Positions 18,884 to 62,908 of a DNA stretch of 64,000 nucleotides are shown here, piece by piece. The stretch spans positions 27,140 through 91,139 of the IMG/VR virus record IMGVR_UViG_3300017717_002521; one strand, 5' to 3'. The notes under the pieces were generated by a model. It saw nothing but the letters and a program-made list of their open reading frames with translations. It ran no database searches and had not been told where the DNA came from. The stretch's first letter is position 1. The number at the start of each line of letters is the position of its first letter. The translations under genes were made by a program, and so were the position numbers. The DNA is from a virus.

Positions 18884-20928
<2,045 letters not shown>

Positions 20929-36871: not shown

Positions 36872-37063
36872 ATGATAGTAAAACATGAAAAGCTTACTTC
36901 GGTTAAAATTACTCAACCTCTTTTCGATAAATTTAAAATGGCAGCTTTAGAAGATAATTTTTCTTTTAAAAAACTTGCTGATCGTGCCATTTTTCTTTAT
37001 CTTACAGATATAGAGTTTAGAAAAAGAATCCATAACCAAAGTAATATTAAGATTAGAAAATGA
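36872..37063 (+). CDS. ribbon-helix-helix-like small protein
   Basis: LTSVKI strand then two helices; heads the glycosylation operon after CTATTTAT at 36838. Confidence 0.55.
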   Translation: MIVKHEKLTSVKITQPLFDKFKMAALEDNFSFKKLADRAIFLYLTDIEFRKRIHNQSNIKIRK

Positions 37064-38499
37064 GTAAATTAAAAGGTTATATCAAAAAGGAAAATAGAAA
37101 AAGAATCTTATTCCTTTGCGACGATATTAGAGTTCATTCAGGCATAGCTACTATGGCAAGAGAAATAGTATGCAATTCTGCTCATCACTTCAACTGGTTT
37201 AATTTAGGAGCTGCTATTCAACATCCTGATTTAGGTAAATTAATAGACATATCAGATGATATGAATAAAAGGTTAGATATTACCGATGCAGAGGTTAGAA
37301 TACTACCTAATAATGGTTACGGTGATACTACTATAGTTCGTAGAATATTAAAAGAACAAGATATCGATGCAATATTAATTTTTACTGATCCTCGTTATTG
37401 GGTGTGGTTATTCGAAATAGAAAGAGAAATTAGAAGTAAAGTTCCTATTATTTGGTATAATATATGGGACGATTATCCTGCTCCTTTATACAATAAAGAT
37501 TACTACAGATCAGTAGATACTTTGCTAGCTATATCTAAAGTAACAGAGAACATAAATAAGTTAGTTTTAAATGAATATGCTGATGATAAACTTATTAAGT
37601 ATGTTCCTCATGGTATAGATGAAAAAGTATTTTATCCTATTAATTCTGAAGATAAAAACTTTAAGCAATTTAGAAAAGATACTCTTAAAGGTAACGATTA
37701 CGAATTCGTAGCTTTTTTTAATTCAAGAAATATAAGTAGAAAACATCCTCATGATTTAGTATTAGGATATAGATTATTTTGTGATAAGATTGGGAAAGAA
37801 AAAGCTAAAAACTGTGGTTTAATAATGCACACCTCAGTTGTAGACCAACACGGTACTGATTTAAAAGCTCTTAAAGAGGCTTTGTGTGATCCTTCTTATG
37901 TTAATTTATTATTTTCTAGTTCTAAATTATCTGCTGCTCAACTAAACTGCTTGTATAATATTGCTGACGTAACAGTTCTTCCTTCATCTAACGAAGGATG
38001 GGGGTTATCACTTACTGAGTCAATGTTAGCAGGTACTATGATAGCAGCTAACGTTACAGGGGGTATGCAAGATCAGATGAGATTTAAAAACGATAAAGGA
38101 GAATGGATAGATTTCGATGCAGATTTTCCTTCTAATCATAAAGGTACATATAAAAAATGTGGGGAGTGGGCGATACCTATTTTTCCTTCTAATATAAGTT
38201 TACAAGGTTCTCCTAAGACTCCTTATATTTTTGACGATAGATGTACTCCAGAAGACATAGCAGAAGCTCTTTTTAAAAGCTATAGTATGAAACCATCAGA
38301 TAGAAAACAAAAAGGTTTAAAAGGTAGAGAATGGGCTTTATCTAAAGAAGCTGGTTTTACTTCATCTAAAATGACTCAAGGTATAGTAGATGGAATAAAC
38401 GAAACGATAGATAACTTTAATCCTAGATCTCCTTTTGATCTTATAGAAGCAACTGAAACTAAACCTAGGTACGTAGAGCATAAATTAACAGATTATTAA
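37060..38499 (+). CDS. GT4-like glycosyltransferase
   Basis: VPHGID, RNISRK, SSNEGWGLSLTE. Confidence 0.88.
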   Translation: MSKLKGYIKKENRKRILFLCDDIRVHSGIATMAREIVCNSAHHFNWFNLGAAIQHPDLGKLIDISDDMNKRLDITDAEVRILPNNGYGDTTIVRRILKEQDIDAILIFTDPRYWVWLFEIEREIRSKVPIIWYNIWDDYPAPLYNKDYYRSVDTLLAISKVTENINKLVLNEYADDKLIKYVPHGIDEKVFYPINSEDKNFKQFRKDTLKGNDYEFVAFFNSRNISRKHPHDLVLGYRLFCDKIGKEKAKNCGLIMHTSVVDQHGTDLKALKEALCDPSYVNLLFSSSKLSAAQLNCLYNIADVTVLPSSNEGWGLSLTESMLAGTMIAANVTGGMQDQMRFKNDKGEWIDFDADFPSNHKGTYKKCGEWAIPIFPSNISLQGSPKTPYIFDDRCTPEDIAEALFKSYSMKPSDRKQKGLKGREWALSKEAGFTSSKMTQGIVDGINETIDNFNPRSPFDLIEATETKPRYVEHKLTDY

Positions 38500-38500
38500 A

Positions 38501-39298
38501 ATGAATTTAGTTTTTAACGGTTGTAGCTTTGTTAAAGGTAATGCTCTCAGGACGCATCACGATACTGGAGGACATGAAAATCTTTCTTGGGAAGAAAAAG
38601 AGCCATTTAACTTTACTACTTTATTATCTAATAAGTTAAATGGTAAACAAATTAATATTGCATCTGCAGGAGGATCAAATGATAGAATAATAAGATCAAC
38701 GTATGAATGGATTAAGCAAAATCCTAATGAAGTTAAAGATAGTATATTTGTTATAGGTTTAACTGAAATATTAAGAAGCGAAAAGTTTTGTGCTAATACA
38801 AAAACTTATGTAAAATGGAGGTATACTACTTTTGCTAATAATGCTAGAAATTTTAAGAAAGAAGCATTAATGTTATTAGATACTAAATTTTATGAGTTTG
38901 TTAAGAAAAATTATTTAGAAGAAAAGGTATTAGAGTATGCTAAAATGGATCTACTTTTATTCTCTGATTTTGAAAATGAGTATAAAAAACTTAATCAACA
39001 GTTAGATATGCTTCAAGGTTATATAGATAATTTAGGAGGTAAACTATTAGTTTTTGCAGCTATGTTAGAACTTGAAAATACTTACTACAATAGAAATGAA
39101 GACTTTGCTACTGAAGGAGCATCTTTAGATACTTCTAACTTTAATTTTCTTACGTTTCCCGAACAAGGTTCTAATTGTTGGAGATCATATATTAAAAGTT
39201 ATAATGCTAATTATCATGCTTATGATCACCCTGCAATAGATGATCAACCTGTATTAGTTGATATACTATTAAATTATATAAATAAAAATTTTAAATGA
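38501..39298 (+). CDS. SGNH-like hypothetical
   Basis: NGCSF, NIA..GGSNDRIIR, DHP. Confidence 0.6.
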   Translation: MNLVFNGCSFVKGNALRTHHDTGGHENLSWEEKEPFNFTTLLSNKLNGKQINIASAGGSNDRIIRSTYEWIKQNPNEVKDSIFVIGLTEILRSEKFCANTKTYVKWRYTTFANNARNFKKEALMLLDTKFYEFVKKNYLEEKVLEYAKMDLLLFSDFENEYKKLNQQLDMLQGYIDNLGGKLLVFAAMLELENTYYNRNEDFATEGASLDTSNFNFLTFPEQGSNCWRSYIKSYNANYHAYDHPAIDDQPVLVDILLNYINKNFK

Positions 39299-40584
39299 AT
39301 AAAGATATAATGGTTATTAGCGCTCCTGTAGATACCTACTCAGGGTATGGAGCTAGAGCTAGAGATTTAATCAAAGCTATAATTAATTTAGACAGGTATG
39401 AGATAAAGATACTTTCTCAAAGATGGGGTAATACTAGATTCGGGTACTTAAAAGATCATAATGATACTGAGTTAAGTTCTAGAATAGTAGATAAGTTACA
39501 ATCAAAACCAGATATATGGATACAAATTACTGTTCCTAATGAATTTCAACCTATGGGAAAATATAACATAGGAGTAACTGCTGGTATAGAAACTACTATA
39601 TGTCATGGTAGTTGGTTAGAGGGTTGTAATAGAATGAATCTTGTAATTACTTCTTCACAACACAGCAAAAACGTATTCGAAAAAACTGTATTTGAAAAAA
39701 TAAATAATCAAACTAAACAAAAAGAAGGAGATTTAAAAGTTACTACTCCTGTAGAAGTATTATTAGAAGGAGCTGATTTATCTAAATACTTTGTTACTAA
39801 AGTAAATTCTAATACAGAAATAGTTAAGTCAGTAGATTCTATTAAAGAATCATTTTGTTATCTATCTGTAGGACATTGGATGCAAGGCAATTTCGGGGAG
39901 GATAGAAAAAATATAGGTTATTTAATTAAAGCTTTTACTGAAGTATTTAAAAATAAAATGAAGAAACCTGCTTTAATACTTAAAACTCAAAAAGTAGGAA
40001 GCTCAATAATCGATCAAGAATATTTACTTAGACAGATAAATGCTATTAGAAGAGAGACTAAAGGAACATTACCTAAAATTTATATACTTCACGGAGAAAT
40101 ATCAGACTATGAAATGAATCAATTATATAATCATCCTAAAGTTAAAGCGATGGTTAGCTTTACAAAAGGAGAAGGTTTTGGAAGGCCATTACTTGAATTT
40201 AGTTTAACCGGTAAACCAATAGTAGCATCAGGATGGTCAGGACAAGTTGATTTTTTAGATAAAGATAAAGCTATTCTCATAGGAGGTTCATTAGAAAACG
40301 TTCATGAGTCAGCAAGTATGAAAGATATGATACTTACTGAAGCGAAATGGTTTAAACCTGATGATAATCAAGTAGGGCATGCTTTTAAAGAAACTTATAA
40401 GAATTATAAAAATTATATTCAACCTGCAAAATCTTTAGCTCATAGAAATAAAAAACTATTTAGCTTTGAAGCTATGGAAGAAATTATAAAGAGTTTATTT
40501 GATAAATATATCCCTGAATTTCCAAAGCAAGTGGAACTGAAACTTCCTTCTCTAAAATTACCTAAATTAGTAAAAAATGGATAA
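39295..40584 (+). CDS. GT4-like glycosyltransferase
   Basis: SGYG, DRKN, KGEGFGRPLLE. Confidence 0.88.
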   Translation: MNKDIMVISAPVDTYSGYGARARDLIKAIINLDRYEIKILSQRWGNTRFGYLKDHNDTELSSRIVDKLQSKPDIWIQITVPNEFQPMGKYNIGVTAGIETTICHGSWLEGCNRMNLVITSSQHSKNVFEKTVFEKINNQTKQKEGDLKVTTPVEVLLEGADLSKYFVTKVNSNTEIVKSVDSIKESFCYLSVGHWMQGNFGEDRKNIGYLIKAFTEVFKNKMKKPALILKTQKVGSSIIDQEYLLRQINAIRRETKGTLPKIYILHGEISDYEMNQLYNHPKVKAMVSFTKGEGFGRPLLEFSLTGKPIVASGWSGQVDFLDKDKAILIGGSLENVHESASMKDMILTEAKWFKPDDNQVGHAFKETYKNYKNYIQPAKSLAHRNKKLFSFEAMEEIIKSLFDKYIPEFPKQVELKLPSLKLPKLVKNG

Positions 40585-41047
40585 CTTAATACAAAGCCCA
40601 GTCAGTGATAGTAATGCTTGTTATGTTACTGAACTAAACGATGGAATTACTTCTTATTTAGATTTCGGGAGTGGTTTTACTACTACTACTTTAATGATTG
40701 AAAAATCGCAACAAGTAGCTAATGCAATAGAATCATCACCAGAACTTTTTAAAGATATTAGGAAGATTGATAAAGATGGGTTAATATGGTTTCCTGCTAC
40801 TATATCTATTCCTAATTCCGGAATGGTTTTTGCTGATGGTACTTCTAAAGATGACTGGAAATGGTCGGCTGTTAAATCTATTTCTCTTACAGAAGATGAA
40901 ATTCAATCTGGTAAGTTTCCTGCTGGTCAGGCTACTAAAATGGATATGAATAATGCAAAAAGTTTTCCAAGAGAAAAAGGATTTATAGATGCTTTAGAGG
41001 AAATAGGATTCTTTGGTATTGATTTTACTAAACCAACAGTTAAATGA
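40577..41047 (+). CDS. hypothetical protein
   Basis: ORF track. Confidence 0.6.
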   Translation: MDNLIQSPVSDSNACYVTELNDGITSYLDFGSGFTTTTLMIEKSQQVANAIESSPELFKDIRKIDKDGLIWFPATISIPNSGMVFADGTSKDDWKWSAVKSISLTEDEIQSGKFPAGQATKMDMNNAKSFPREKGFIDALEEIGFFGIDFTKPTVK

Positions 41048-41673
41048 AAATAACCTTCGCTATAACAGTATGTAACGAACAATTTGAGATAATCAGGTTA
41101 GTTGAAATGATTTTAGCTAATAAAAGGACACAAGACGACATAGTGGTGTTGTATGATCAAACTAACGGTAATTCTGAAATACCTACTTGGTTAACAAAAA
41201 AATCTAATCTTCCTGGTTTTCAATTTTGGAGAGGAGCTTTTAAAGGTAACTTTGCTGATTGGAAAAATAAATTAACTGAGTACTGTTCTGGGGATTATAT
41301 ATTTCAGATAGATGCTGATGAATATCCTAATAAAGAATTATTTACTTATCTTCCTATGATATTAGAATCTAATCCTAACAATGAAGTTTATTTAGTTCCT
41401 AGAGTAAATACTGTAGAAGGTCTTACTGAAGGTCATACTAAAAAATGGGGATGGAATGTAAGTAATAAAGGTTGGATAAACTGGCCGGACTATCAATGGC
41501 GTATATGGAAAAATAAACCTGAGATCAAATGGAAAAATAAAGTACATGAAGTACTTACTGGTTTTAAAGCTTACGCTCCATTACCAGCGGAAGAAAAATT
41601 AGCATTGTATCATCCAAAGACGATTGACCGTCAAGAAATACAGAATAAATATTATGAATCTCTCATTAATTAA
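41044..41673 (+). CDS. GT2 glycosyltransferase
   Basis: AITVCNE, QIDADE, VHE. Confidence 0.85.
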   Translation: MKITFAITVCNEQFEIIRLVEMILANKRTQDDIVVLYDQTNGNSEIPTWLTKKSNLPGFQFWRGAFKGNFADWKNKLTEYCSGDYIFQIDADEYPNKELFTYLPMILESNPNNEVYLVPRVNTVEGLTEGHTKKWGWNVSNKGWINWPDYQWRIWKNKPEIKWKNKVHEVLTGFKAYAPLPAEEKLALYHPKTIDRQEIQNKYYESLIN

Positions 41674-42256
41674 TAACTATTTTGATCCTAAAACAGTATT
41701 AGATATAGGAGCGAATGTAGGGCAGTTTCATTCTAATGCTAAAAGCATTTGGCCAGAAAGCTATATTTTTTCTATAGAAGCTTCAGATGCTTGTGAACCA
41801 TATTTAAATGAAATTACTAATGACTATCTTATTTGCCTATTGACTAAAGATGATACTAAGTATGAATTTTTTAGTCGCAAAAATGATCCAACCTGTACTG
41901 GTAATTCAATATATAGAGAACTAACTGAATTTTACTCTGACGATCAATTAGATGTAATTAAAAAGGACGGTATTAAACTTGACGATTTATTTACTAAAGA
42001 TTCGATGTTTGATCTAATAAAAATTGACACCCAGGGATCAGAGCTAGATATTTTAGAAGGAGGAAAAGAATTATGCAAAAAAGCAAAAGGTATTCTGTTA
42101 GAAGTTTCGTTTAATGAATATAATTTAAATGCTCCTTTGGTAGATCAAGTACTTAAATATATGGATAATTTTAAGTTTAAACCTGCTATAGTTTTGGACA
42201 TTCAGACTAATCATGGTTCACACCAAGAAGATATTTTATTTTTAAATGAAAGATAA
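41654..42256 (+). CDS. FkbM-family methyltransferase
   Basis: LDIGANVG, KIDTQGSELDIL.G. Confidence 0.9.
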   Translation: MNLSLINNYFDPKTVLDIGANVGQFHSNAKSIWPESYIFSIEASDACEPYLNEITNDYLICLLTKDDTKYEFFSRKNDPTCTGNSIYRELTEFYSDDQLDVIKKDGIKLDDLFTKDSMFDLIKIDTQGSELDILEGGKELCKKAKGILLEVSFNEYNLNAPLVDQVLKYMDNFKFKPAIVLDIQTNHGSHQEDILFLNER

Positions 42257-43016
42257 TTTACTTATAGGAGCTGTAAGCGGAAATTACGGTGTAGAAGATA
42301 TTAAAACTTGGGTAGATACCTCAGAGTATGGCTTTAGTAGAACTCTTATAGTATTTAATGCTAAAGACAACAATGAATTACTTCCATATTTAGAATCTAA
42401 AAATATAAAATACATTCTTCCTACTTTCGATTTTTGGGGTAACGAAAAAGATTTTTTTGAACATCACACAGGTAAAATGAATTTGCAGAATAGCTTTGAT
42501 CTTATACATAATATGAGATTTATGTATATTCATAAGTATCTACAAGAACAGAAGTATAATAAAGTATTAGTAACTGACGTAAAAGACGTTAAGTTTAATA
42601 GTGATCCTTTTACTATGCTTCCATCCGACAAGTTAGTAGCTACAGGAGAAGTTATAAAGTATAAAGATGATGAATGGAATATGCAGCATTTAATTTATAA
42701 TATCGGTATATTTGGATTTGATTTTAAAGAAGAAGAAGTACTTAACGTAGGAGTTTTTGGAGGTTCAGCTGATTTAGTTAGAGATTTAAGCAGAGATATA
42801 TTTTTACTATCCGCTGGTAAACCTAAAGTAGCTGATCAAACTTCATTTAATTACTTAGCTAGAACATTATATAAAGATAAGTTTATTTTTACCAGCATAC
42901 ATGATAAGATCGCTGTTCATCTTCAGGTTATAGTAAATGGGTTAGTTGAATTTGATTATAGTACTATTCCGTACTACCCAATAGTTCATCAATACGATAG
43001 AATAAAAGATGTATAG
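42246..43016 (+). CDS. GT-A-fold glycosyltransferase-like
   Basis: TDVKDV, LNVGVFGG, DQ..FN, VHQYDR. Confidence 0.65.
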   Translation: MKDNLLIGAVSGNYGVEDIKTWVDTSEYGFSRTLIVFNAKDNNELLPYLESKNIKYILPTFDFWGNEKDFFEHHTGKMNLQNSFDLIHNMRFMYIHKYLQEQKYNKVLVTDVKDVKFNSDPFTMLPSDKLVATGEVIKYKDDEWNMQHLIYNIGIFGFDFKEEEVLNVGVFGGSADLVRDLSRDIFLLSAGKPKVADQTSFNYLARTLYKDKFIFTSIHDKIAVHLQVIVNGLVEFDYSTIPYYPIVHQYDRIKDV

Positions 43017-43719
43017 TATTATAATATCATATAGAGATAGAGAGTCACATTTAGAAATGCTTCTTCCTAGACTAGAAGAACTTTTTGATAGTAAAGACTA
43101 TGAAATTATTATAGCTGAACAAGATAATAATGAAAAGTTTCAGAAGAATAGTTTATACAATTTAGCCGCAGTAAGAGCTAAAGGAGATATTTTTATATTT
43201 CATGATGTTGATTACTACCCTGTTGAAGATATTTCTTATGATACTAAAGTCGATGTTCCATTTTACCCAGTTGGTAAAGTTTTATTTTTAAATGAAAATA
43301 ATCAACCGAGAAAAATTGAAGATATTCCTGCTGGGTATAGAAATTTTCACGTTACAGTAGGAGATCATTCAGGAGGGGTATTTGTTCTTTCAAAAGAATT
43401 ATTTTTTAAAACTAATGGACTAAATCCTTTTTTCAAAGGTTGGGGTAAGGAAGATGATGCAACTAGAGATAGATTAAGATTTTTAGGATATAATTGGAAA
43501 AGAAATAACAAAGCTTTATTTTATGCTCTATACCATAAGGATAGTAAACCTGATGATAACGATAATGACTTTGTAAATAATAATAAACTCTATATGAATC
43601 TTACCTCAGATACTGAAGTAGGTTTAAATAATGTTAACGGTAAGGTAGAAGAGTTTGATATGCCTGATCATTCTAATGTAAGATGGTTAAAAATAAAAGA
43701 TTTTGAATATAAAAGTTAA
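43009..43719 (+). CDS. GT7-like galactosyltransferase
   Basis: YRDR, FHDVD, GG, GWGKEDD. Confidence 0.8.
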   Translation: MYSIIISYRDRESHLEMLLPRLEELFDSKDYEIIIAEQDNNEKFQKNSLYNLAAVRAKGDIFIFHDVDYYPVEDISYDTKVDVPFYPVGKVLFLNENNQPRKIEDIPAGYRNFHVTVGDHSGGVFVLSKELFFKTNGLNPFFKGWGKEDDATRDRLRFLGYNWKRNNKALFYALYHKDSKPDDNDNDFVNNNKLYMNLTSDTEVGLNNVNGKVEEFDMPDHSNVRWLKIKDFEYKS

Positions 43720-44092
43720 TATTTCACCAGGAGAGTTATTAGATAAAATTTCTATTATAGAACTCAAACTTCTTAAAATAAACGATACAGCTAAACTTAA
43801 TAATATTATGATTGAGTTTGAAGCTCTAAACCCTCAAGTAGTAGAATTATTAGAAAAATTTAAAGAACCTCTTAAACAAAAGTATTTGCATCTTTCAGAA
43901 GTTAATGAAACGTTATGGGATATAGAGGATGCTATTAGAGTAAAGGAAAAGAATAAAGAGTTTGATAGTAAATTTATAGAGCTTGCAAGATCAGTTTATA
44001 GACAAAATGATAAAAGAAGTATTATTAAAAAGTTTATAAATCAAATGACTGACTCTAGTTTAACAGAAGAAAAATCATATGAAGAATACTAA
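43703..44092 (+). CDS. DUF6165-like protein
   Basis: ISPGELLDKISI, LWDIED.IR, ARSVY.ND.R, EEKSY. Confidence 0.75.
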   Translation: MNIKVNISPGELLDKISIIELKLLKINDTAKLNNIMIEFEALNPQVVELLEKFKEPLKQKYLHLSEVNETLWDIEDAIRVKEKNKEFDSKFIELARSVYRQNDKRSIIKKFINQMTDSSLTEEKSYEEY

Positions 44093-44963
44093 AGTTCTAG
44101 TAATTACTTATGGTTACTTTGGGGATATAGCTTTTGCGTCTTCTTTAGCTGAGTTTCTAAAAAAAGAATACGATACTGTTGATTACCTGATAGGGTTTCC
44201 TCAAATGAGAAAATTAATAAATAATAATCCTTTTATAAACAAAGTATTCGTACCTCCTAATCCAGGTCCAGCTCCTTCAACTAGCGTTGAATTTCAGTTA
44301 ACGTATTCGAAAGTTATACAATTAGGTCCTTTATCGTTTACTAAACCTCCAGTGGTAGAATATAAACAGCAAGCAGGAATAAAGGATAAAAGCCCTGAAT
44401 ATAAACTTTATACCGATCCTGATTTGGATTCAGCTGTTCAGACTTTATTTACTGATTTGCCTAAAAATAAAAAAGTTATAGCTGTTATGAATAATTGGAA
44501 GGAGAAAACTTTTACTTTTACAGAAGAGCAATATAAAGCAGGAATAGATGTTCCAAATTTAGGTTATGGTGGGGCTCATAGAGATACAGATAAAATTATT
44601 TCGGTACTCTCAGATTATTTTACTATATTAACAGTAGGAGTAGATGGAAGCAATCAACATCAAACTGTTAATACTGATGATTACGATTCAAAATCTATTT
44701 TATTTGAAACTTCTATTATGAAATACTGTAATGCTTTTGTAGGTGCTGAAGGAGGTTTATGTAATTTAGCTGCAGGAGTTGGCACCAGTACCATTATTAC
44801 AGGAGATTTTATACATCAACTGTATGGATGGAATGGAGTAATAAAAAAAATTAATGAGCCTAAATTAGGACCCGAAAATTATTTTAAAGAGGGTAAGCAT
44901 AAAACATTAGACCCTTACCTATCAGATGAACAAGTTGTTGAACAAATAAAATTATTACTATGA
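44079..44963 (+). CDS. GT9-like glycosyltransferase
   Basis: GDI, NNPFI, FVGAEGG..NLAAGVG. Confidence 0.7.
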   Translation: MKNTKVLVITYGYFGDIAFASSLAEFLKKEYDTVDYLIGFPQMRKLINNNPFINKVFVPPNPGPAPSTSVEFQLTYSKVIQLGPLSFTKPPVVEYKQQAGIKDKSPEYKLYTDPDLDSAVQTLFTDLPKNKKVIAVMNNWKEKTFTFTEEQYKAGIDVPNLGYGGAHRDTDKIISVLSDYFTILTVGVDGSNQHQTVNTDDYDSKSILFETSIMKYCNAFVGAEGGLCNLAAGVGTSTIITGDFIHQLYGWNGVIKKINEPKLGPENYFKEGKHKTLDPYLSDEQVVEQIKLLL

Positions 44964-45676
44964 CTAAAAAATTAAATATACTTATTCCAATGGCTGGAGC
45001 TGGAAGTAGATTCCAAGAGGCAGGATATAATCTTCCTAAGCCATTGATAGATGTTAAAGGTAAACCTATGATTCAACACGTGGTCGAAAATATTGCTTTA
45101 GAAGGTAGATATATTTTTATAGTCCAAAAAGAACATTACGAAAAATATTCTTTAAAATATATTCTTAAATTAATTAAACCAGACTGTGAAATTATTATTA
45201 CGGATGGATTAACTGAAGGAGCAGCATCAACTACTTTACTTGCTAAAGATTTAATAAATACAGATGATGCTTTATTGATAGCTAATTCTGATCAATGGAT
45301 AGATTGGGCTCCTAATCATTTTTATGATTACGTTAACAGAAGAAATGCTGATGGAGCTATACTTTCTTTTATATCTAATTCTCCTAAACATAGTTACTCT
45401 AAAATAGAGAATGGTTATATAACTGAAGTAGCAGAAAAAAAAGTTATTAGTAATCATGCAACAGTAGGAATATACTATTGGAAAAAAGGAAGAGACTATA
45501 TAGACTGTACTAATAATATGATAGAAAAAAACATAAGGTATAATAATGAATTTTATGTCTGCCCAGTTTATAATCAACTGATAGAAAAAGGTGGGATGGT
45601 TCTTCCATACGCTATACCACAGATGCACGGTATGGGAACTCCTGAAGAATTAAATAAATTTCTTAGTATAAATTAA
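44960..45676 (+). CDS. sugar-phosphate nucleotidyltransferase-like
   Basis: IPMAGAGSRF...PKPLI, AEK, GTPEEL. Confidence 0.85.
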   Translation: MTKKLNILIPMAGAGSRFQEAGYNLPKPLIDVKGKPMIQHVVENIALEGRYIFIVQKEHYEKYSLKYILKLIKPDCEIIITDGLTEGAASTTLLAKDLINTDDALLIANSDQWIDWAPNHFYDYVNRRNADGAILSFISNSPKHSYSKIENGYITEVAEKKVISNHATVGIYYWKKGRDYIDCTNNMIEKNIRYNNEFYVCPVYNQLIEKGGMVLPYAIPQMHGMGTPEELNKFLSIN

Positions 45677-46860
45677 TGAATATATTTAAATTAGAATCTC
45701 AGATAAATAAAGATGAATATTTTATAGTGGAATACTATCTAGGTTCCTCTATTAATCTTAGAGAAGCATCATGGCAACTTGCTATAGGTCAAAGTGTCGG
45801 TAATCCTAACGTTCGTAATAGATGGGAAACTGATGAATTATTCGAAAAGTATTCATGTTTAATATTAGATACTGAAAAGAACTTAAGTCAAAAAAAAGAA
45901 GGTAAGGTTAAAATAGCTTTTCCTGTAATTAATATAGATTTTAAAACTGATGGTATTGCTCATTTGTTAGTTAACATTATGGGAGGTCAAATGGATATAG
46001 AATCAATTGATGTATGTCAAGTATTAAATATATACTTTCCTCAATCGGTTCATGATCTATTTTTAGGACCTAAATTTGGAATAGAAGGCATAAGAAAATT
46101 TACAGGAGTAAATAATAAACCTTTACTAGGTGCTATAGTTAAACCTAAAACTGGTATAAGTGCTAGTCTGCTCTTACAGATGGTAAAAGAATTAGTAGAA
46201 GGAGGAGTTAATTTTATTAAAGAGGATGAAATTATGTCTAACCCTTCTTTCTGTACTATAGAAGAAAGAGTTCCATTAATAATGGATTACTTGAAAGATA
46301 AAAATGTTATTTATTCTGTCTCTATCCATGCTGATCCTCATCAAGTACTAGAGAGAGTAAAACTTGTTCATAAGCTAGGAGGTAATAGCGTTCACGTTAA
46401 TTTCTGGTGTGGAATGGGTATATATAAATCTATAAGAGAACTTGATCTTCCATTATTTGTACATTTTCAAAAAAGTGGAGATAAAATACTTACTAACCGT
46501 AAACATAATTACTATATTGAATGGAAAGTTATTAGTAAACTAGCAGGTATGATGGGAGTAGACTTTATTCATGCAGGTATGATAGGAGGGTACTATAAAT
46601 GGGACGAAGACGAAGTATTAGATTCAGTAGACGAACTACATAAATATGGAGTAATGCCAGCTTTAAGTTGCGGGTTTCATCCTGGGCTAACTGATTTGGT
46701 TTGTAAAAAAGTTGGTAATGATTTTATGGCTAATGTTGGAGGAGCTATTCATGGACATCCCGAAGGTACTTTAGCAGGAGCTAAAGCAATGAGACAAAGC
46801 TTAGATAAAAAGTATGGAGTAGAATATTTTCAAGCTATATCTAAATGGGGTAAAGCATAA
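45676..46860 (+). CDS. RuBisCO-like protein (form IV-type)
   Basis: GPKFG, IVKPKTG, FIKEDE, DFIHAG, GGAIHGHP.G...GA.AMRQ; lacks E60, N123 and K334 equivalents. Confidence 0.9.
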   Translation: MNIFKLESQINKDEYFIVEYYLGSSINLREASWQLAIGQSVGNPNVRNRWETDELFEKYSCLILDTEKNLSQKKEGKVKIAFPVINIDFKTDGIAHLLVNIMGGQMDIESIDVCQVLNIYFPQSVHDLFLGPKFGIEGIRKFTGVNNKPLLGAIVKPKTGISASLLLQMVKELVEGGVNFIKEDEIMSNPSFCTIEERVPLIMDYLKDKNVIYSVSIHADPHQVLERVKLVHKLGGNSVHVNFWCGMGIYKSIRELDLPLFVHFQKSGDKILTNRKHNYYIEWKVISKLAGMMGVDFIHAGMIGGYYKWDEDEVLDSVDELHKYGVMPALSCGFHPGLTDLVCKKVGNDFMANVGGAIHGHPEGTLAGAKAMRQSLDKKYGVEYFQAISKWGKA

Positions 46861-46862
46861 TT

Positions 46863-47549
46863 ATGAAAAAAATAGCATTATGCATCTCAGGACAGCCTAG
46901 ATTTGTTGAGGAAGGTTATGAAAAAGTTTTAAAGCCATTTGTTTTAGATGGAAATGATGTAGATGTATTTATTCATAGTTGGATACCTGACGAAGAGCAA
47001 ATAGGTAAACCTTATATTAATGCTGGAGGACATCCTATGGGAAAAGAAGTTGAAGAAGGTATATTTGATACTGTATCTAAACTTTATAATCCTACTCGAA
47101 CTTTTTATGAGAAGCAAAGATTTTTTGAGTTCGGTAAATATGCTGAAAGAACTCTTCCTCATATAAGAAGTGATTACCTTTTTAGTATGTTTTATTCTAT
47201 CTGGAAGTCTAATAATATTCTAAATGATTATATAATAGAAACTGGTATAGAATACGATTGGGTAGTTAGATCTAGATTTGATGTTCAGCTAAATAAGAAA
47301 ATTGATTTTAATCTTAACGCTTCTTCTATCTTAGTTCCTTATGGGTGTTGGAGTGATGAAGGATTAGTAGATTGTTTTGCATATTCAAATAAATCTAATA
47401 TGGATATATACTGCAATCTTTATAATAATATTGATTATATAATGCATTCTTCTGACATTGGTTTTTGTTGTGAATTTATTCTTAAACAATATTTAGATAC
47501 TATGAAAATAGACGTTCAAGAACTATTCTGGCATTCTCTTTATAGATGA
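46863..47549 (+). CDS. glycan-cluster hypothetical (ALCISGQPR family)
   Basis: IALCISGQPR, FIHSW, YDWVVRSRFD. Confidence 0.6.
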   Translation: MKKIALCISGQPRFVEEGYEKVLKPFVLDGNDVDVFIHSWIPDEEQIGKPYINAGGHPMGKEVEEGIFDTVSKLYNPTRTFYEKQRFFEFGKYAERTLPHIRSDYLFSMFYSIWKSNNILNDYIIETGIEYDWVVRSRFDVQLNKKIDFNLNASSILVPYGCWSDEGLVDCFAYSNKSNMDIYCNLYNNIDYIMHSSDIGFCCEFILKQYLDTMKIDVQELFWHSLYR

Positions 47550-48004
47550 AAATAATATCACATAGAGGAAATTTATCAGGGCCTGATCCTAAACAAGAAA
47601 ACAAACCATCTCAAATTATAAGTGCTATTGAAAAAGGATATGAAGTTGAAATAGATGTATGGTTTAAAGATAAAAAGTTTTATTTAGGACATGATGAACC
47701 TCAGTACGATTTTCCGTTTGAATTATTAGAAAAGTTTTATACTAAATTATGGGTTCATGCTAAATCTTTTGATACTTTAAATAAACTAAAAGATATAGAT
47801 TATGATGGTAATTATTTAAATTATTTTTGGCATCAATCTGATGATTATGTTTTAACTTCTAAAGGATATATTTGGACTTTCCCTAATAAATTCTTATCTT
47901 ATAATAGTATTTGTGTCAAACCAGAAATACAGACAGAAAAAGTTTTTTTAGACTGTGCAGGTATATGTACGGATTTTCCTATTAAGTATGAAAATAATTT
48001 ATAG
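47546..48004 (+). CDS. GDPD/PI-PLC-like phosphodiesterase fold, short form
   Basis: ISHRGN, EN, VEIDVW, LGHD, GICTDF. Confidence 0.7.
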   Translation: MKIISHRGNLSGPDPKQENKPSQIISAIEKGYEVEIDVWFKDKKFYLGHDEPQYDFPFELLEKFYTKLWVHAKSFDTLNKLKDIDYDGNYLNYFWHQSDDYVLTSKGYIWTFPNKFLSYNSICVKPEIQTEKVFLDCAGICTDFPIKYENNL

Positions 48005-48680
48005 AATATCGGACGCAGGTTATAATAAAGTCAAACCCGATTTTATTACTAACGAAATATGTTTAAGGAATTTTGTAGATGTATTTCTTCCTAACGATTT
48101 TACTGTTATAGCTGATAATATATCTGAGGATACTAAAAAAATGATACTTGAGTATATTCCTGAAGATTGTATTGAATATGTAAAAGTAGGTCATGGAGCA
48201 GGTACTTTTAATCTAGCATTAGATAAAGCATTAACTTATAGTGATGAAGAAATAATTTACTTTATTGAGAATGATTATCTGCACACCCCAGATGCTAAAA
48301 AAATATTAAAAGAAGGTTTCGATATTGGAGCTTCTTTCGTATCTTTATATGATCATCCTGATAAGTATCTTTCTCCAGATAGAGGAGGTAATCCATACTG
48401 TCAAGGTGGAGCAGAAGATACTAGAGTGTATTTAACTAGTAACTCTCATTGGAAAATAACTAATAGTACTACTATGACTTTTGCCGCTAAGGTTAAAACT
48501 TTGAAAGAGACTGAAAGAACTTTAAGAGAATTTACTAATGGAACTCACCCTCATGATTTCCAAATGTTTCTTAAGCTAAGAGAGCAAAATCAATTATTAA
48601 TAACCCCTATACCAGGTAAGTCTACTCATGGAGAAACTGCTTGGTTGTCACCACTAATAGATTGGAATAAATATGCATAA
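47988..48680 (+). CDS. GT2-like glycosyltransferase
   Basis: YFIENDYLH. Confidence 0.65.
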   Translation: MKIIYRISDAGYNKVKPDFITNEICLRNFVDVFLPNDFTVIADNISEDTKKMILEYIPEDCIEYVKVGHGAGTFNLALDKALTYSDEEIIYFIENDYLHTPDAKKILKEGFDIGASFVSLYDHPDKYLSPDRGGNPYCQGGAEDTRVYLTSNSHWKITNSTTMTFAAKVKTLKETERTLREFTNGTHPHDFQMFLKLREQNQLLITPIPGKSTHGETAWLSPLIDWNKYA

Positions 48681-49758
48681 CAAAACAATTTTAATTACCG
48701 GAGTAGCTGGATTATTAGGAAGCAGATTAGCCGAATATATAATCGAAAAGAAACCTGGTAATACCGTTATAGGTATAGATGACCTTTCAGGAGGATATAA
48801 AAGTAATATACCTAAAGAGGTCAAATTTTACAAAGCAAATACTTTTGATGATAAGATTAAAGATATATTTGAATTAGAGCAACCTGATATAGTATATCAT
48901 TTTGCTGCTTATGCTGCTGAAGGTTTATCTCCCTTCATTCGTACTTTTAACTACGATAATAATTTAAAGAGTACTGCTTCTATAGTTAACGAATGTATTA
49001 AACATAACGTAGAAAGGTTAGTATTTACTTCTACTATGGCCGTTTACGGTAATGGATGGCAAGGTAAAAGACCTTTTGAAGAAATAGACCCTCCTCGTCC
49101 GATAGATCCATACGGTATTGCTAAGTATGCCTGCGAAATGGATATACAATGTGCCGGTGAACAGCATGAATTAGATTGGTGTATACTCAGACCTCACAAC
49201 GTTTACGGACGTAATCAAAATATATGGGATAAATATAGGAACGTTTTAGGTATTTGGATGTATCAATATATGAATAATATACCTCTAACTATCTTTGGTG
49301 ATGGTTCTCAAAGAAGAGCTTGGAGTAGTATAGATGATTGTTTAGAGCCAATGTGGAAGGCTGCATTTATTCCTAAAGCATCTAAAGAAATAATTAACCT
49401 AGGAGGTCCTGAGTTCACAACTATTAATGAAGCTTGTAGAGTAGTAAGAAATGTTATAGGTGGAGGAGATAAAGCTCTTATAGAAAAGATTGAGGTAGTA
49501 TATGAAGAAGCTAGACATGAAGTCAAAAATGCTTACCCAACATGGAAGAAGTCTGAATTAATATTAGGTTTTGAACATACTACTTCTTTAGAAGACGGAT
49601 TGACTGAGATGTGGAAATGGGCTCAGACTCAACCTAACAGAGAAAGATTTGTCTGGAAAAAATATGAATTAGAAAAAGGAATATATAATTTTTGGAAAAA
49701 TGATAAGTCTAATAATACCAACTTACCGCAACCCGAAGTATCTGGATATTTGTCTTAA
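48673..49758 (+). CDS. NAD-dependent sugar epimerase/dehydratase
   Basis: TGVAGLLG, YGIAK, RPHNVYG, GDGSQRR. Confidence 0.9.
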   Translation: MHNKTILITGVAGLLGSRLAEYIIEKKPGNTVIGIDDLSGGYKSNIPKEVKFYKANTFDDKIKDIFELEQPDIVYHFAAYAAEGLSPFIRTFNYDNNLKSTASIVNECIKHNVERLVFTSTMAVYGNGWQGKRPFEEIDPPRPIDPYGIAKYACEMDIQCAGEQHELDWCILRPHNVYGRNQNIWDKYRNVLGIWMYQYMNNIPLTIFGDGSQRRAWSSIDDCLEPMWKAAFIPKASKEIINLGGPEFTTINEACRVVRNVIGGGDKALIEKIEVVYEEARHEVKNAYPTWKKSELILGFEHTTSLEDGLTEMWKWAQTQPNRERFVWKKYELEKGIYNFWKNDKSNNTNLPQPEVSGYLS

Positions 49759-50497
49759 ATCTGCCGTAGAAGGTCAGATTAACTATAAGGATAAGAACGA
49801 AATAATAGTAGTTGTAGATGGCTTTGTAGAAGAAAGCAAAGATGTCTTAGAGAAATACAAGGGAAAAGTTCAAGTACTTCCTCTAGAAGGTAATCTTGGT
49901 ATGCAAATGGCTCTTAATTTAGGAGTTATGAATGCTACCAATGAACGAATAATGATTATTAATGATGATAATGTTCTATGTGTAGGTTGGGATTCTATAT
50001 GGGCAGATATGTCTGAAGGAGAAGTAATAACTATAAATCAAATTGAACCTACAGGACCAGGTATATTTAATTTTCCTGTGAAAGATCTTGGAAAGACCCC
50101 AGAGGAGTTTGACTATGATGATTTTGTTCTTTATGAAACCAGTATAAGTTCTAACGAAGTATCAGATGATGGAGGTATATTTCCTTTTGCCATATTTAAA
50201 AAGAATTATATGATGGTAGGGGGATTTGATACTGTTTACCAATCACCTTTTATTTGTGACTGGGATTTCTTTCTTAAGTTAGAATTAGCTGGGTGTACTT
50301 TTACTAGAACACATAGTCAACATTTTTACCACTTTGGTTCTACTGCTACTAAGAACGGCAAAGAGGGAGAAGCTTTCAAAGCTACTGAAGCACCAGCTGC
50401 TGAAACTTATATTTATAAATGGGGAACACCTCCAGGTATTTATGAAAATAATTCTCATATACCTAAAGGTAAATTAATTAAAGGAATACAATTTTAA
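49700..50497 (+). CDS. GT2 glycosyltransferase
   Basis: IIPTY, VVVDG, INDD, GGFD. Confidence 0.85.
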   Translation: MISLIIPTYRNPKYLDICLKSAVEGQINYKDKNEIIVVVDGFVEESKDVLEKYKGKVQVLPLEGNLGMQMALNLGVMNATNERIMIINDDNVLCVGWDSIWADMSEGEVITINQIEPTGPGIFNFPVKDLGKTPEEFDYDDFVLYETSISSNEVSDDGGIFPFAIFKKNYMMVGGFDTVYQSPFICDWDFFLKLELAGCTFTRTHSQHFYHFGSTATKNGKEGEAFKATEAPAAETYIYKWGTPPGIYENNSHIPKGKLIKGIQF

Positions 50498-50674
50498 ATG
50501 GAAAAGAAATACTTAATAGAATTTACTCATGCAGATGGGACTAAAGAAGAAGTAGAATTAGTTACTGATAGATTAAAATGGTCTATTGATCAGTGGTCTA
50601 GACATAGAGCTGTAGTAAGTCATAAAATTTTAGAAGAAGGAAGTTCTAACGCTAAAAATATGTTACTTGGATGA
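50498..50674 (+). CDS. small hypothetical protein (58 aa)
   Basis: fills the gap exactly; ATGA overlap downstream. Confidence 0.55.
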   Translation: MEKKYLIEFTHADGTKEEVELVTDRLKWSIDQWSRHRAVVSHKILEEGSSNAKNMLLG

Positions 50675-51504: not shown

Positions 51505-51542
51505 CTATTTATAATGTAGTACCTATATTCTAATATACAATT

Positions 51543-55836: not shown

Positions 55837-55837
55837 A

Positions 55838-62119: not shown

Positions 62120-62908
62120 ATGAACGTCGCTATTATAGTTTGGGGGTTTTATAGACAGTTTGATGCTGCTGTAGAATTCTGGGATGAGAGTTATTCTGAA
62201 TATAACCCTGATTATTTTTTTTCTATATGGGAGGATAGTATGGAAAAATGTACTCTAACTGGTTTTAACTTTGATATTAGAAAAAAAGCTACTAGAAAAG
62301 ACATTACTAAACACTACCCAGATGCTAATATAAATATATTTAAAAATAAAGCTTGTAAATTAGTTGCTGCTGAAAGAATATGGTTTTTATTAGAAAAAGC
62401 AGTCGACTCTATTCTTGAAAGTAATAAGAAATATGACGTTATTATAGTTAAACGAGCTGATGCATTTGAATGGAGAGATTACAAAATAACTGACAATTTA
62501 AAAAATAATACAATCTATACTTACCAAGGTAGACAGAGAGATTCTTATGGGAACCCACATTACGATTTTGGGGATATTTTCTTTTATGGTCGTAGTGATA
62601 GTATGGTTAAATTTATTAAAGGTTTTGTTAACTCTAAATATCTTAAACTAAAAGATGAATTTTGCCCACACAAAAGCCCAGATCAGTTCTTATGGGAATC
62701 AGATTTAGATATAGAGATATTTCCTGGCAATCATCATGAGCAATTAGTTCGCCCTATACACTTATTTATGTTTCCTTCTAATAAACCTATTAAAGAGTTT
62801 TTAGATGAGAATGCATGGATGTTTAATGGGTTAGAAGGACTATGGCATTATATTAGAACAAATAGAAGACAGTACTACTTTATTAGTGAGGACGAAATAG
62901 GAGAATAA
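62120..62908 (+). CDS. glycan-modification-associated hypothetical (related to 46863)
   Basis: VAIIVWG..R, FSIW, YDVIIVKRAD, DIFFYG. Confidence 0.55.
   Translation: MNVAIIVWGFYRQFDAAVEFWDESYSEYNPDYFFSIWEDSMEKCTLTGFNFDIRKKATRKDITKHYPDANINIFKNKACKLVAAERIWFLLEKAVDSILESNKKYDVIIVKRADAFEWRDYKITDNLKNNTIYTYQGRQRDSYGNPHYDFGDIFFYGRSDSMVKFIKGFVNSKYLKLKDEFCPHKSPDQFLWESDLDIEIFPGNHHEQLVRPIHLFMFPSNKPIKEFLDENAWMFNGLEGLWHYIRTNRRQYYFISEDEIGE

What the first reader, a model, noticed from the sequence alone, without database searches (positions are those of the whole stretch)
44960..49758. RuBisCO-like protein embedded in a phage sugar-nucleotide and glycosylation operon
Seen: an RLP with K175/K177, a KEDE carbamylation motif and phosphate-binding glycines, but Gln at the E60 position and no N123 or K334. 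It is translationally coupled to a nucleotidyltransferase and followed by a phosphodiesterase-fold protein, GTs and an epimerase. Established: form IV RLPs catalyse enolase, isomerase or (trans/de)carboxylase steps on sugar phosphates, including branched-sugar catabolism, and do not fix CO2. Inference: a biosynthetic RLP making an unusual, possibly branched, sugar for NDP activation and transfer to virion or surface glycans.
Basis: partly seen in the sequence, partly recalled or inferred. Interest (0 to 1): 0.8.

Follow-up and report, generated by a model that had tools for sequence, protein, structure and literature searches.

The report
Phage RuBisCO-like enzyme in sugar-activation cassette
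A large phage, probably of a Flavobacterium-type host, carries an intact RuBisCO relative that cannot fix CO2 and is wired to a sugar-activating enzyme, a miniature phosphodiesterase and a transferase inside a glycan gene island, so it most likely prepares an unusual activated sugar, a job never shown for this enzyme family.

Summary
Window 45676-46860 (+) encodes an intact 394-aa RuBisCO-like protein. It keeps K175, K177, K201, D203, E204, H327 and the phosphate-binding glycines, and has E60Q, N123G, H294Q and K334Y. Its start overlaps the stop of a nucleotidyltransferase (TAATG).

A GT-A-fold transferase comes next, then a 152-aa miniature GDPD-fold phosphodiesterase, a weak GT2, and an SDR epimerase.

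The protein belongs to the published 'form IV-like' phage/Beckwithbacteria clade (Jaffe et al. 2019), whose function is unknown. It does not group with methionine-salvage RLPs.

Linkage to the nucleotidyltransferase is conserved in 79 of 80 viral loci and in bacterial genomes. Natural RLP-nucleotidyltransferase(-cupin) fusions exist.

New here: this window is a cupin-less variant. In cultured cyanophages that lack the RLP, the same nucleotidyltransferase family sits with the mini-GDPD and the GT-A transferase. There it is fused to DHBP synthase, RpiB or a HAD domain.

So the RLP looks like one interchangeable ketose- or pentose-phosphate 'front end' of a portable sugar-activation module. The substrate, the 'branched sugar' idea and the glycan target remain untested.

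This scan has already noted the cassette on other DNA many times.

The parts
44079..44963 (+). 294-aa protein, a lead for a GT9-like (GT-B) glycosyltransferase. Its stop overlaps the nucleotidyltransferase start (ATGA).
   Evidence: No Pfam, NCBIfam or PDB sequence match. ESM Atlas nearest clusters carry PF01075 Glyco_transf_9 in 36-45% of members, and the structure match to GT9 has TM 0.70. Junction read.
44960..45676 (+). Sugar-phosphate nucleotidyltransferase, 'type A' of the family that travels with the RLP.
   Evidence: PF00483, 48.9 bits against a cut-off of 21.2. Best solved relative is 4evw (Vibrio cholerae NDP-sugar pyrophosphorylase), 1e-17 over the full length. Below every NCBIfam equivalog cut-off. 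Matches phrog_3980, 'unknown function'. Found within 8 kb of the RLP in 79 of 80 viral loci. Subfamily placement.
45676..46860 (+). RuBisCO-like protein of the 'form IV-like' phage clade. The metal and carbamate core is intact; the carboxylation residues are replaced.
46863..47549 (+). GT-A-fold transferase (p228 family, phrog_13607). Invariant G10, R138 and D140: an R-x-D motif where the GT-A DxD motif would be expected.
   Evidence: AF2 model pLDDT 90.8. Foldseek top matches are GT6, GfsA and B3GalT5 at E about 1e-5. The family is present in 59 of 89 RLP loci, often in several copies. It is fused to the mini-GDPD in L005:8206-9276.
47546..48004 (+). Miniature (152-aa) GDPD-fold phosphodiesterase with HRG, EN, ExD, GHD and HxK motifs.
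   Evidence: Alignment A1 invariants H6, R7, G8, E18, N19, E35, D37, H49, H71, K73. AF2 pLDDT 95.2. VIA-align: the top 22 rows are GDPD/PLD-type enzymes, Z 8.8-11.8, about 145 residues aligned. Foldseek top matches are GDPDs 1v8e and 1vd6. No Pfam hit even at E 10. Present in 69-73 RLP loci.
47955..48680 (+). 241-aa ORF with a weak GT2-like match. It is not a conserved partner.
   Evidence: PF00535 at 8e-4, 19.8 bits, below the cut-off. Found in only 5 loci.
48673..49758 (+). NAD-dependent NDP-sugar epimerase/dehydratase (SDR).
   Evidence: PF01370 1e-43. GalE-like, 101 bits, below the cut-off. phrog_540. A relative is present in 28-31 RLP loci.
49700..50497 (+). GT2 glycosyltransferase.
   Evidence: PF00535 7e-16.
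37060..44092 (+). Upstream part of the same co-directional glycan island: two GT1, DUF6071, GT2, FkbM methyltransferase, GT7-like galactosyltransferase domains, DUF6165.
62120..62908 (+). Second, divergent paralogue of the p228 GT-A-fold transferase family.
   Evidence: jackhmmer 8e-29. phrog_13607 at 1e-4.

Best explanation
The RLP is a working, non-carboxylating enolising enzyme, an isomerase, epimerase or dehydratase type. It most likely uses its retained Mg2+/carbamylated-lysine centre and P1 phosphate pocket to rearrange a ketose phosphate, most plausibly one derived from a pentulose phosphate. The abutting nucleotidyltransferase then converts the product into an NDP-linked donor. GT-A-fold transferases of the p228 family pass that unit on to a glycan built by the surrounding island. 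The miniature GDPD handles a phosphodiester somewhere in the transfer step.

The RLP is one of several interchangeable 'front ends' of a portable module made of nucleotidyltransferase, mini-GDPD and GT-A transferase, with or without a cupin.

Shown: intactness, the conserved altered active site, conserved linkage, the fusions, and the module without the RLP.

Inferred: catalysis, the kind of substrate, the order of steps, and the role of the GDPD.
For: 1. The active-site pattern is invariant in 75 distinct family members: Q39, N43, P44, G104, I154, K156, K158, K182, D184, E185, Q265, Y306, S331, C332, G333, G355, G356. In all, 77 positions are at least 97% conserved. That indicates purifying selection on a remodelled but functional site. 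The P1-site glycines and the metal ligands are kept, while P2-site positions vary (R295 to K/S/R, H327 to H/Q).

2. Linkage. The nucleotidyltransferase lies within 8 kb in 79 of 80 IMG/VR loci, usually adjacent. It is also linked in a complete Verrucomicrobiae chromosome and in Balneola, Sphingobacteriales, Planctomycetales and Beckwithbacteria contigs, down to 35% RLP identity. By contrast, the nucleotidyltransferase family occurs in only 22 of 50,697 GenBank phage records.

3. Natural fusions. P0122 is RLP plus nucleotidyltransferase. P0123 is RLP plus nucleotidyltransferase (32% identical to the window's) plus cupin. There are also nucleotidyltransferase-cupin and GDPD-GT-A fusions.

4. The same nucleotidyltransferase family, with mini-GDPD and p228-type GT-A, occurs in cultured cyanophages that have no RLP. 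There it is fused to other sugar-phosphate enzymes:
- DHBP synthase in S-SKS1 (PF00926, 5e-65)
- RpiB in Bellamy (4e-32)
- a HAD_2 domain in S-CAM9
Class II aldolases, a PfkB-like kinase and phosphoheptose isomerases lie nearby. DHBP synthase and RpiB both act on ribulose 5-phosphate by enediol chemistry; this is established knowledge of those families.

5. The window's 'type A' nucleotidyltransferase groups with the HAD-fused ones. The RLP and a HAD sugar-phosphate enzyme therefore serve the same nucleotidyltransferase subtype.

6. The surroundings are a co-directional island of at least 8 glycosyltransferases, methyltransferases, an SDR and a sulfotransferase. Across related loci, O-methyltransferases, aminotransferases and radical-SAM enzymes recur.
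Against: - No substrate, product or activity has been measured for any member of this clade.
- Neighbourhood and fusion show cooperation, not the order of steps. The RLP could act on the NDP-linked compound rather than before activation.
- The small cupin that accompanies the RLP in about 60 of 89 loci is absent from this whole 91-kb record. The pathway here may be shortened or different.
- The record is only about 55% complete.
- The role proposed for the GDPD is a guess.
- The pentulose-phosphate idea rests on analogy with the fusion partners of homologous nucleotidyltransferases that are only 32-57% identical.
Confidence: 0.55

Rival explanations
1. Same module, opposite order. The nucleotidyltransferase first activates a ketose phosphate. 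The RLP then rearranges the NDP-linked ketose, with its P1 pocket holding the beta-phosphate and the remodelled residues 60-66 and loop 6 holding the nucleotide.
For: In the fusions the RLP comes first, then the nucleotidyltransferase, then the cupin; domain order does not fix reaction order. The invariant changes E60Q, T65N, W66P and K334Y all surround the P1 site. The nucleotidyltransferase gene precedes the RLP gene in most loci.
Against: No RuBisCO-superfamily member is known to take a nucleotide-linked substrate (my own knowledge). In RLP-less versions the fused partners (RpiB, DHBP synthase, HAD) are enzymes of free sugar phosphates.
Confidence: 0.2
2. The activated unit is used to decorate phage DNA bases, as a hypermodification against restriction, rather than a protein or polysaccharide glycan.
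For: T4-like phages attach arabinose or another pentose to cytosine using their own NTP-transferases and glycosyltransferases (PMC12838424). The window also carries a GTP cyclohydrolase typical of base-modification pathways.
Against: The island holds eight or more glycosyltransferases of several folds, methyltransferases and a sulfotransferase, which fits a multi-sugar glycan. The cassette also sits in bacterial chromosomes. The nucleotidyltransferase search of GenBank phages matched only cyanophages, Ralstonia phage phiRSL1 and one unnamed record, and no Escherichia or Shewanella phage such as RB69 or Thanatos. No hydroxymethylase was seen, but none was searched for systematically.
Confidence: 0.07
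3. The RLP is an auxiliary metabolic gene for host salvage (methylthio- or 5-deoxy-pentose, or nucleotide salvage). It merely sits in a variable island and has no functional tie to its neighbours.
For: Known RLPs work in methionine salvage and sugar-acid catabolism (NCBIfam family names). By score, the nearest sequences outside the clade are form III-type RuBisCOs.
Against: All curated cut-offs are missed by wide margins. The MtnW-type Lys at the N123 position is Gly here, and MtnW-like sequences form a separate clade. Linkage and fusion to the nucleotidyltransferase are conserved across viruses and bacteria. No salvage partners (MtnA/B/X/D-like) appear in the loci.
Confidence: 0.05
4. The protein is a catalytically dead scaffold or a decaying remnant.
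For: Four residues essential to RuBisCO are lost.
Against: It is full length with no stops. There are 77 near-invariant positions, including the metal ligands, across 75 diverse members. The library holds 2760 homologues at E<=1e-10.
Confidence: 0.03

Closest known systems
'Form IV-like' RuBisCO-related proteins of phages and Beckwithbacteria (Jaffe, Castelle, Dupont & Banfield 2019, PMC6389311)
   Same: The origin is the same: IMG/VR phage contigs, some from myoviruses. The clade is highly divergent, lacks key RuBisCO residues, groups with Beckwithbacteria sequences and lies outside the other RLPs. Here a Beckwithbacteria contig encodes a 54%-identical member, and the clade splits from all other forms with 99-100 SH-aLRT support.
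   Different: The paper left the function open and, in the passages I read, says nothing of gene neighbourhoods, the nucleotidyltransferase, the GDPD or the fusions. This window is also a cupin-less arrangement.
DK-MTP-1-P enolase MtnW/YkrW and the Rhodospirillum rubrum MTRu-1-P isomerase RLP (methionine salvage)
   Same: Same fold. K175, K201, D203 and E204 are kept. The chemistry is enolisation of a 1-phospho-ketose without CO2.
   Different: Scores are 145 and 119 bits against cut-offs of 409 and 514. Gly replaces the catalytic Lys at the N123 position. The clades are separate. The context here is biosynthetic, not salvage.
3-oxo-isoapionate-4-phosphate decarboxylase OiaX (apiose catabolism RLP)
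   Different: 151 bits against a cut-off of 700. Plasmid OiaX genes are at most 31% identical. Their context is catabolic.
Bifunctional or clustered NDP-sugar pathways: PMI-GMP (cupin plus nucleotidyltransferase) and the GmhA-HldE-GmhB-HddC NDP-heptose route
   Same: The logic is an isomerase, then phosphate handling, then a nucleotidyltransferase. Nucleotidyltransferase-cupin fusions are seen here. SIS isomerase, kinase and HAD neighbours accompany relatives of the nucleotidyltransferase.
   Different: No RuBisCO-fold enzyme and no GDPD take part in those pathways (my own knowledge). The nucleotidyltransferase here is below every curated equivalog cut-off.
Cyanophage modules without the RLP (S-CAM9, S-SKS1, Bellamy, S-SM2)
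   Same: They share the nucleotidyltransferase family (29-58% identity), the mini-GDPD, the p228-type GT-A transferases, a cupin in Bellamy, and a glycan-island setting.
   Different: The RLP's place is taken by DHBP synthase, RpiB, HAD domains or class II aldolases. These genes are annotated as hypothetical, 'phosphatase' or 'glycosyltransferase', and no function has been reported for them that I could find.

Membership tests
RuBisCO large-subunit superfamily | N-terminal domain plus C-terminal barrel domain (PF02788 and PF00016) above the Pfam cut-offs | tested here: met
   PF00016 124.2 bits (cut-off 30.1); PF02788 21.8 bits (cut-off 20.7).
Bona fide RuBisCO (forms I-III) | Full catalytic set: E60, N123, K175, K177, K201, D203, E204, H294, R295, H327, K334 | tested here: not met
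   E60Q, N123G, H294Q, R295K and K334Y. rubisco_III scores 190 bits against a cut-off of 497.
MtnW/YkrW DK-MTP-1-P enolase | Score above the equivalog cut-off, and Lys at the position of N123 | tested here: not met
   145 bits against 409 and 119 bits against 514. Gly at that position. Sequences with Lys there form a separate clade with 99 support.
OiaX 3-oxo-isoapionate-4-phosphate decarboxylase | Score above the equivalog cut-off | tested here: not met
   151 bits against a cut-off of 700.
'Form IV-like' phage/Beckwithbacteria clade (Jaffe et al. 2019) | Phage-borne, groups with Beckwithbacteria sequences, and branches apart from all other RLPs and RuBisCOs | tested here: met
   179 IMG/VR relatives. 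A Beckwithbacteria contig is 54% identical with the same cassette. The signature clade is monophyletic at 99 and split from the rest at 100.
'Form IV-like' phage/Beckwithbacteria clade (Jaffe et al. 2019) | Direct grouping with the sequences used in that paper | not testable with these tools
   The paper's sequences were not at hand. Membership is inferred from the shared source (IMG/VR), the shared Beckwithbacteria relative and the tree position.
Sugar-phosphate nucleotidyltransferase (PF00483) | Domain above the cut-off, and the N-terminal G-x-G-x-R loop | tested here: met
   48.9 bits against a cut-off of 21.2. The motif PMAGAGSRF aligns with 4evw.
BcbE (Pasteurella multocida type B capsule, needed for the fructose side chain) | Sequence homology to BcbE | not tested
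   Earlier notes of this scan call the nucleotidyltransferase 'BcbE-like'. No BcbE sequence was available to me. The paper (PMC13552107) gives a function but no domain description.
Glycerophosphodiester phosphodiesterase (GDPD, PF03009) | Catalytic motifs (HRG, E..D metal ligands, second His) and the barrel fold | tested here: met
   Invariant H6, R7, G8, E35, D37, H49 and H71. Z 11.8, rmsd 3.2, 145 residues aligned to 1o1z, and the top 22 rows are all GDPD/PLD enzymes.
Glycerophosphodiester phosphodiesterase (GDPD, PF03009) | Pfam model match and a full-size (about 220-250 aa) barrel | tested here: not met
   No Pfam hit at E<=10. The protein is 152 aa against 217-330 aa for the solved GDPDs. 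I therefore call it GDPD-fold and miniature, not a family member by the curated model.
GT-A-fold glycosyltransferases | GT-A Rossmann-like fold | tested here: met
   Model pLDDT 90.8. There are 217 Foldseek matches at E<=1e-3, led by GT6, GfsA and GT31 enzymes.
GT-A-fold glycosyltransferases | DxD metal- and nucleotide-binding motif | tested here: inconclusive
   The invariant motif is R138-x-D140, and D170 is nearly invariant. No curated family is matched: weak DUF7796 at 23 bits against a cut-off of 27; weak hhalign to a WavE-family protein, E 0.018.

The most novel reading that the evidence does not exclude
This clade is the first anabolic branch of the RuBisCO superfamily. It would be an enediol-forming enzyme that converts a common pentulose or ketose phosphate into a rare ketose-type phosphate. 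That product is nucleotide-activated and installed on glycans. The RLP would be a plug-in alternative to DHBP synthase, RpiB or HAD front ends in a widespread and so far undescribed viral and bacterial sugar-donor module that also needs a miniature GDPD.
Probability: 0.4. Interest if true: 0.8.

Novelty: new variant of a known kind. Interest (0 to 1): 0.62.

Why it matters
Every RuBisCO-like protein with a known function works in salvage or catabolism. A branch dedicated to building an activated sugar would widen the chemistry of one of the best-studied enzyme folds.

The clade is large: 2760 homologues at E<=1e-10, and 179 IMG/VR loci. Its function has been open since it was described in 2019.

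The conserved partners, the natural fusions and the RLP-less versions in cultured cyanophages make the question directly testable in vitro. They also point to an undescribed nucleotide-sugar module in abundant aquatic phages, where such glycans may affect host recognition or defence.

Tried and rejected
- Methionine-salvage or OiaX membership was rejected on curated scores, residues and the tree.
- No RLP was found in 50,697 GenBank phage records and PHROGs has no family for it, so no cultured phage model carries it.
- The search for related loci with the mini-GDPD alignment failed because no stretch was conserved enough.
The contexts of the fusion proteins P0122-P0124 could not be read, and the C-terminal 330 residues of P0124 stay unassigned; they show no similarity to the window's nucleotidyltransferase.
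- The cupin profile found nothing in the whole 91-kb record. Against solved structures it gives only generic small-cupin and quercetinase matches, so the cupin's chemistry is not settled.
- The p228 profile has no sequence match in the PDB.
- The variable P2-site residues of the RLP do not track cupin presence.
- A frameshifted full-length UDP-glucose dehydrogenase was considered for 50498-51932. It was rejected because the upstream 58-aa frame is unrelated.
- Four full-text searches for a published link between this RLP clade and nucleotidyltransferases, capsules, glycosyltransferases or glycerophosphodiesterases found nothing relevant.
- Homology of the nucleotidyltransferase to BcbE could not be checked.

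Full report
**What is there**

The window is part of a 91-kb IMG/VR virus record that is about 55% complete. All genes lie on the + strand and GC is about 31%. The DNA polymerase is 68% identical to that of Flavobacterium phage vB_FspM_immuto, a 160-kb myovirus. GroEL, an exonuclease and a GTP cyclohydrolase match phage families. It is therefore a large tailed phage, probably of a Bacteroidota host.

From about 37060 to at least 50497 runs a co-directional island of tightly packed or overlapping genes. It holds two GT1, a GT2, an FkbM methyltransferase, a GT7-like protein, a GT9-like lead, the cassette discussed here, an SDR epimerase/dehydratase and another GT2. Further glycan genes, a sulfotransferase and a GT25, lie at 55096-56539.

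**The RLP**

ORF 45676-46860 encodes 394 residues with both RuBisCO large-subunit domains. It aligns over its whole length with solved form III RuBisCOs and RLPs.

- Kept: K175, K177, K201, D203, E204, H327, S379, G381, G403, G404.
- Replaced: E60Q, T65N, W66P, N123G, T173I, H294Q, R295K, K334Y, G380C.

The protein misses every NCBIfam cut-off: form III 190 against 497, OiaX 151 against 700, MtnW 145 against 409 and 119 against 514.

The pattern QNPG-I-K-K-K-D-E-Q-(K/R/S)-(H/Q)-Y-S-C-G-G-G is invariant, apart from the two bracketed positions, in 75 distinct relatives taken from viral and bacterial loci. Across the protein, 77 positions are at least 97% conserved. The changed site is therefore itself under selection.

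**Family placement**

The large library holds 2760 homologues at E<=1e-10, and IMG/VR holds 179 loci.

A full HMMER pass over 1.84 billion representatives shows that the signature is confined to about 21 full-length 50%-identity representatives. The next-best hits are true RuBisCO-type sequences or other RLPs.

A maximum-likelihood tree was built from 111 representatives (quick search, SH-aLRT only, midpoint root). It recovers the signature clade at 99. That clade plus one variant sister is split from everything else at 100. Sequences with the MtnW-type Lys form their own remote clade.

A Beckwithbacteria contig carries a 54%-identical member. This matches the 'form IV-like' phage/Beckwithbacteria clade of Jaffe et al. 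2019, who reported about 80 such phage sequences and left the function unclear.

No GenBank phage among 50,697 records has the gene, and PHROGs has no family for it.

**The partners**

- *Upstream nucleotidyltransferase* (44960-45676). It is a PF00483 enzyme whose best solved relative is the uncharacterised 4evw of Vibrio cholerae. Its stop overlaps the RLP start as TAATG.
- *First downstream gene* (46863-47549). It folds with high confidence as a GT-A transferase.
- *Second downstream gene* (47546-48004). It is a 152-aa protein with the HRG, ExD and GHD motifs and the fold of glycerophosphodiester phosphodiesterases, at about two thirds or less of their size.

**Conservation of the partners**

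In the 80 best viral loci:
- The nucleotidyltransferase lies within 8 kb in 79.
- The mini-GDPD lies within 8 kb in 69.

Profile searches over all 89 viral and bacterial loci, plus the window, add:
- The GT-A family in 59 loci, often in several copies.
- A 108-aa metal-site cupin in about 60.

The same linkage holds in bacterial genomes. A complete Verrucomicrobiae chromosome has GT-A, RLP, nucleotidyltransferase and cupin in a row, with no other glycan genes beside them. Balneola and Sphingobacteriales contigs keep RLP, nucleotidyltransferase and GT-A at only 35-38% RLP identity.

The nucleotidyltransferase family is rare in phages at large, in 22 of 50,697 records. The association is therefore far beyond chance.

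Natural fusions tie the parts together:
- RLP plus nucleotidyltransferase (P0122).
- RLP plus nucleotidyltransferase plus cupin (P0123).
- Nucleotidyltransferase plus cupin, in six loci.
- Mini-GDPD plus GT-A (L005).

**What is particular to this window**

The cupin is absent from the whole record.

A tree of the nucleotidyltransferase domains separates two types:
- *Type A* holds the window and about 20 other loci where the nucleotidyltransferase abuts the RLP with no cupin.
- *Type B* holds the nucleotidyltransferase-cupin-RLP order and the cupin fusions.

Some loci (L003, L025) hold both types.

**The module without the RLP**

Close relatives of the type A nucleotidyltransferase (55-58% identity) sit in cultured cyanophages that lack the RLP.

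- *S-CAM9*: the nucleotidyltransferase is fused to an N-terminal HAD_2 domain. A second HAD, the mini-GDPD and three p228-type GT-A genes surround it.
- *S-SKS1*: a type B relative is fused to 3,4-dihydroxy-2-butanone-4-phosphate synthase, PF00926 at 5e-65.
- *Bellamy*: it is fused to RpiB and followed by the cupin and a GT-A gene. A PfkB-like kinase, a class II aldolase and the mini-GDPD lie nearby.
- *S-SM2*: it has a double nucleotidyltransferase, a class II aldolase, phosphoheptose isomerases, the mini-GDPD and a GT-A gene.

Plasmid relatives in cultured bacteria sit with HAD phosphatases, a SIS isomerase, a kinase, WavE-family proteins and TagF-like or Stealth transferases.

The constant part is therefore nucleotidyltransferase plus mini-GDPD plus GT-A, with or without a cupin. 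The variable part is an enzyme of ketose or pentose phosphates.

DHBP synthase and RpiB both start from ribulose 5-phosphate through an enediol. Class II aldolase-family enzymes and RLPs also use metal-bound enediolates of ketose phosphates. Both statements are established knowledge of those families.

**Mechanism proposed**

I infer that the RLP uses its retained carbamate-Mg2+ centre and P1 phosphate pocket to enolise a ketose phosphate and reprotonate, shift the carbonyl or dehydrate it. The product is then taken up by the abutting nucleotidyltransferase.

The P2 phosphate site is not conserved, which argues against a bisphosphate substrate.

A concrete but unproven possibility follows the known MTRu-1-P to methylthio-xylulose-5-P isomerisation by the Rhodospirillum rubrum RLP. 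Carbonyl migration would turn a 5-phospho-pentulose into a 1-phospho-ketose, or the reverse.

The GT-A paralogues would transfer the unit. The GDPD, which is fused to a GT-A in one locus, would process a phosphodiester at the transfer step.

None of these chemical steps is shown. The order of the RLP and the nucleotidyltransferase is open. Nothing supports a branched product, CO2 use, or a choice between virion and cell-surface targets.

**A lead not tested**

Earlier notes of this scan call the nucleotidyltransferase 'BcbE-like'. A 2026 paper shows that BcbE and BcbG are needed to add the fructose (a ketose) side chain of the Pasteurella multocida type B capsule. If the homology holds, it would fit a ketose donor. 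I had no BcbE sequence to check it.

**Rivals**

- *Reverse order on an NDP-ketose* is a serious variant.
- *DNA base glycosylation* is possible in principle. It fits poorly with the many transferases and with the bacterial copies.
- *A salvage AMG* or *a dead protein* are both disfavoured by scores, the tree, linkage and conservation.

**Prior work of this scan**

The same cassette has been reported on other DNA more than a dozen times, with the same closest-known clade.

My tests agree with those notes on linkage, fusions and the GDPD. They add:
- The cupin-less type A arrangement.
- The GT-A fold of the p228 family.
- The GDPD-GT-A fusion.
- The DHBP-synthase, RpiB and HAD fusions in cultured cyanophages.

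Noticed in passing
window 50671-51504: The UDP-glucose/NDP-sugar dehydrogenase homologue is only 277 aa. It starts at about position 66 of the NAD-binding domain model, so the start of that domain (model positions 1-65, where I expect the dinucleotide-binding glycine loop) is missing, and it lacks the C-terminal domain. The flanking frames (50498-50674, 51534-51932) are unrelated, so it is a truncated remnant or a split gene, not a simple frameshift.
   Followed up: partly
window 55096-56539: A sulfotransferase (PF03567, 1.6e-10) and a GT25 LPS-type glycosyltransferase lie 5 kb beyond the island, after a transglycosylase-like gene. The glycan may be sulfated.
   Followed up: no
window 12296-13201 and 19195-20832: A phage GTP cyclohydrolase (phrog_5949, 7e-86), which may point to 7-deazaguanine-type DNA modification, and a phage GroEL chaperonin (phrog_5725, 2e-166).
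   Followed up: no
L093:6001-7428 (Synechococcus phage S-SKS1) and L094:5998-7155 (phage Bellamy): Cultured cyanophages encode fusions of this nucleotidyltransferase family to DHBP synthase (RibB) and to RpiB. GenBank annotates them only as 'DHBP synthase' and 'phosphatase'. They are tractable entry points to the module's chemistry.
   Followed up: partly
L089:7276-11437 (Verrucomicrobiae chromosome OY970364.1): A compact bacterial version of the cassette (GT-A, RLP, nucleotidyltransferase, cupin) is followed by a fatty-acid-desaturase-like membrane protein and has no other glycan genes nearby. The target there may be a lipid or another small acceptor.
   Followed up: no
P0124 (724 aa), P0127 (667 aa): Clade RLPs with C-terminal extensions of about 270-330 residues. 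Pfam recognises nothing in P0124's extension and it shows no similarity to the window's nucleotidyltransferase; P0127's extension was not examined. Other long RuBisCO-type representatives carry N-terminal extensions (P0161, P0178).
   Followed up: partly
L096, L097 (Azospirillum and Legionella plasmids): RefSeq/PGAP names many cellular relatives of this nucleotidyltransferase 'glycosyltransferase family 2 protein'. This looks like a systematic misannotation of an NTP-transferase-fold family.
   Followed up: no
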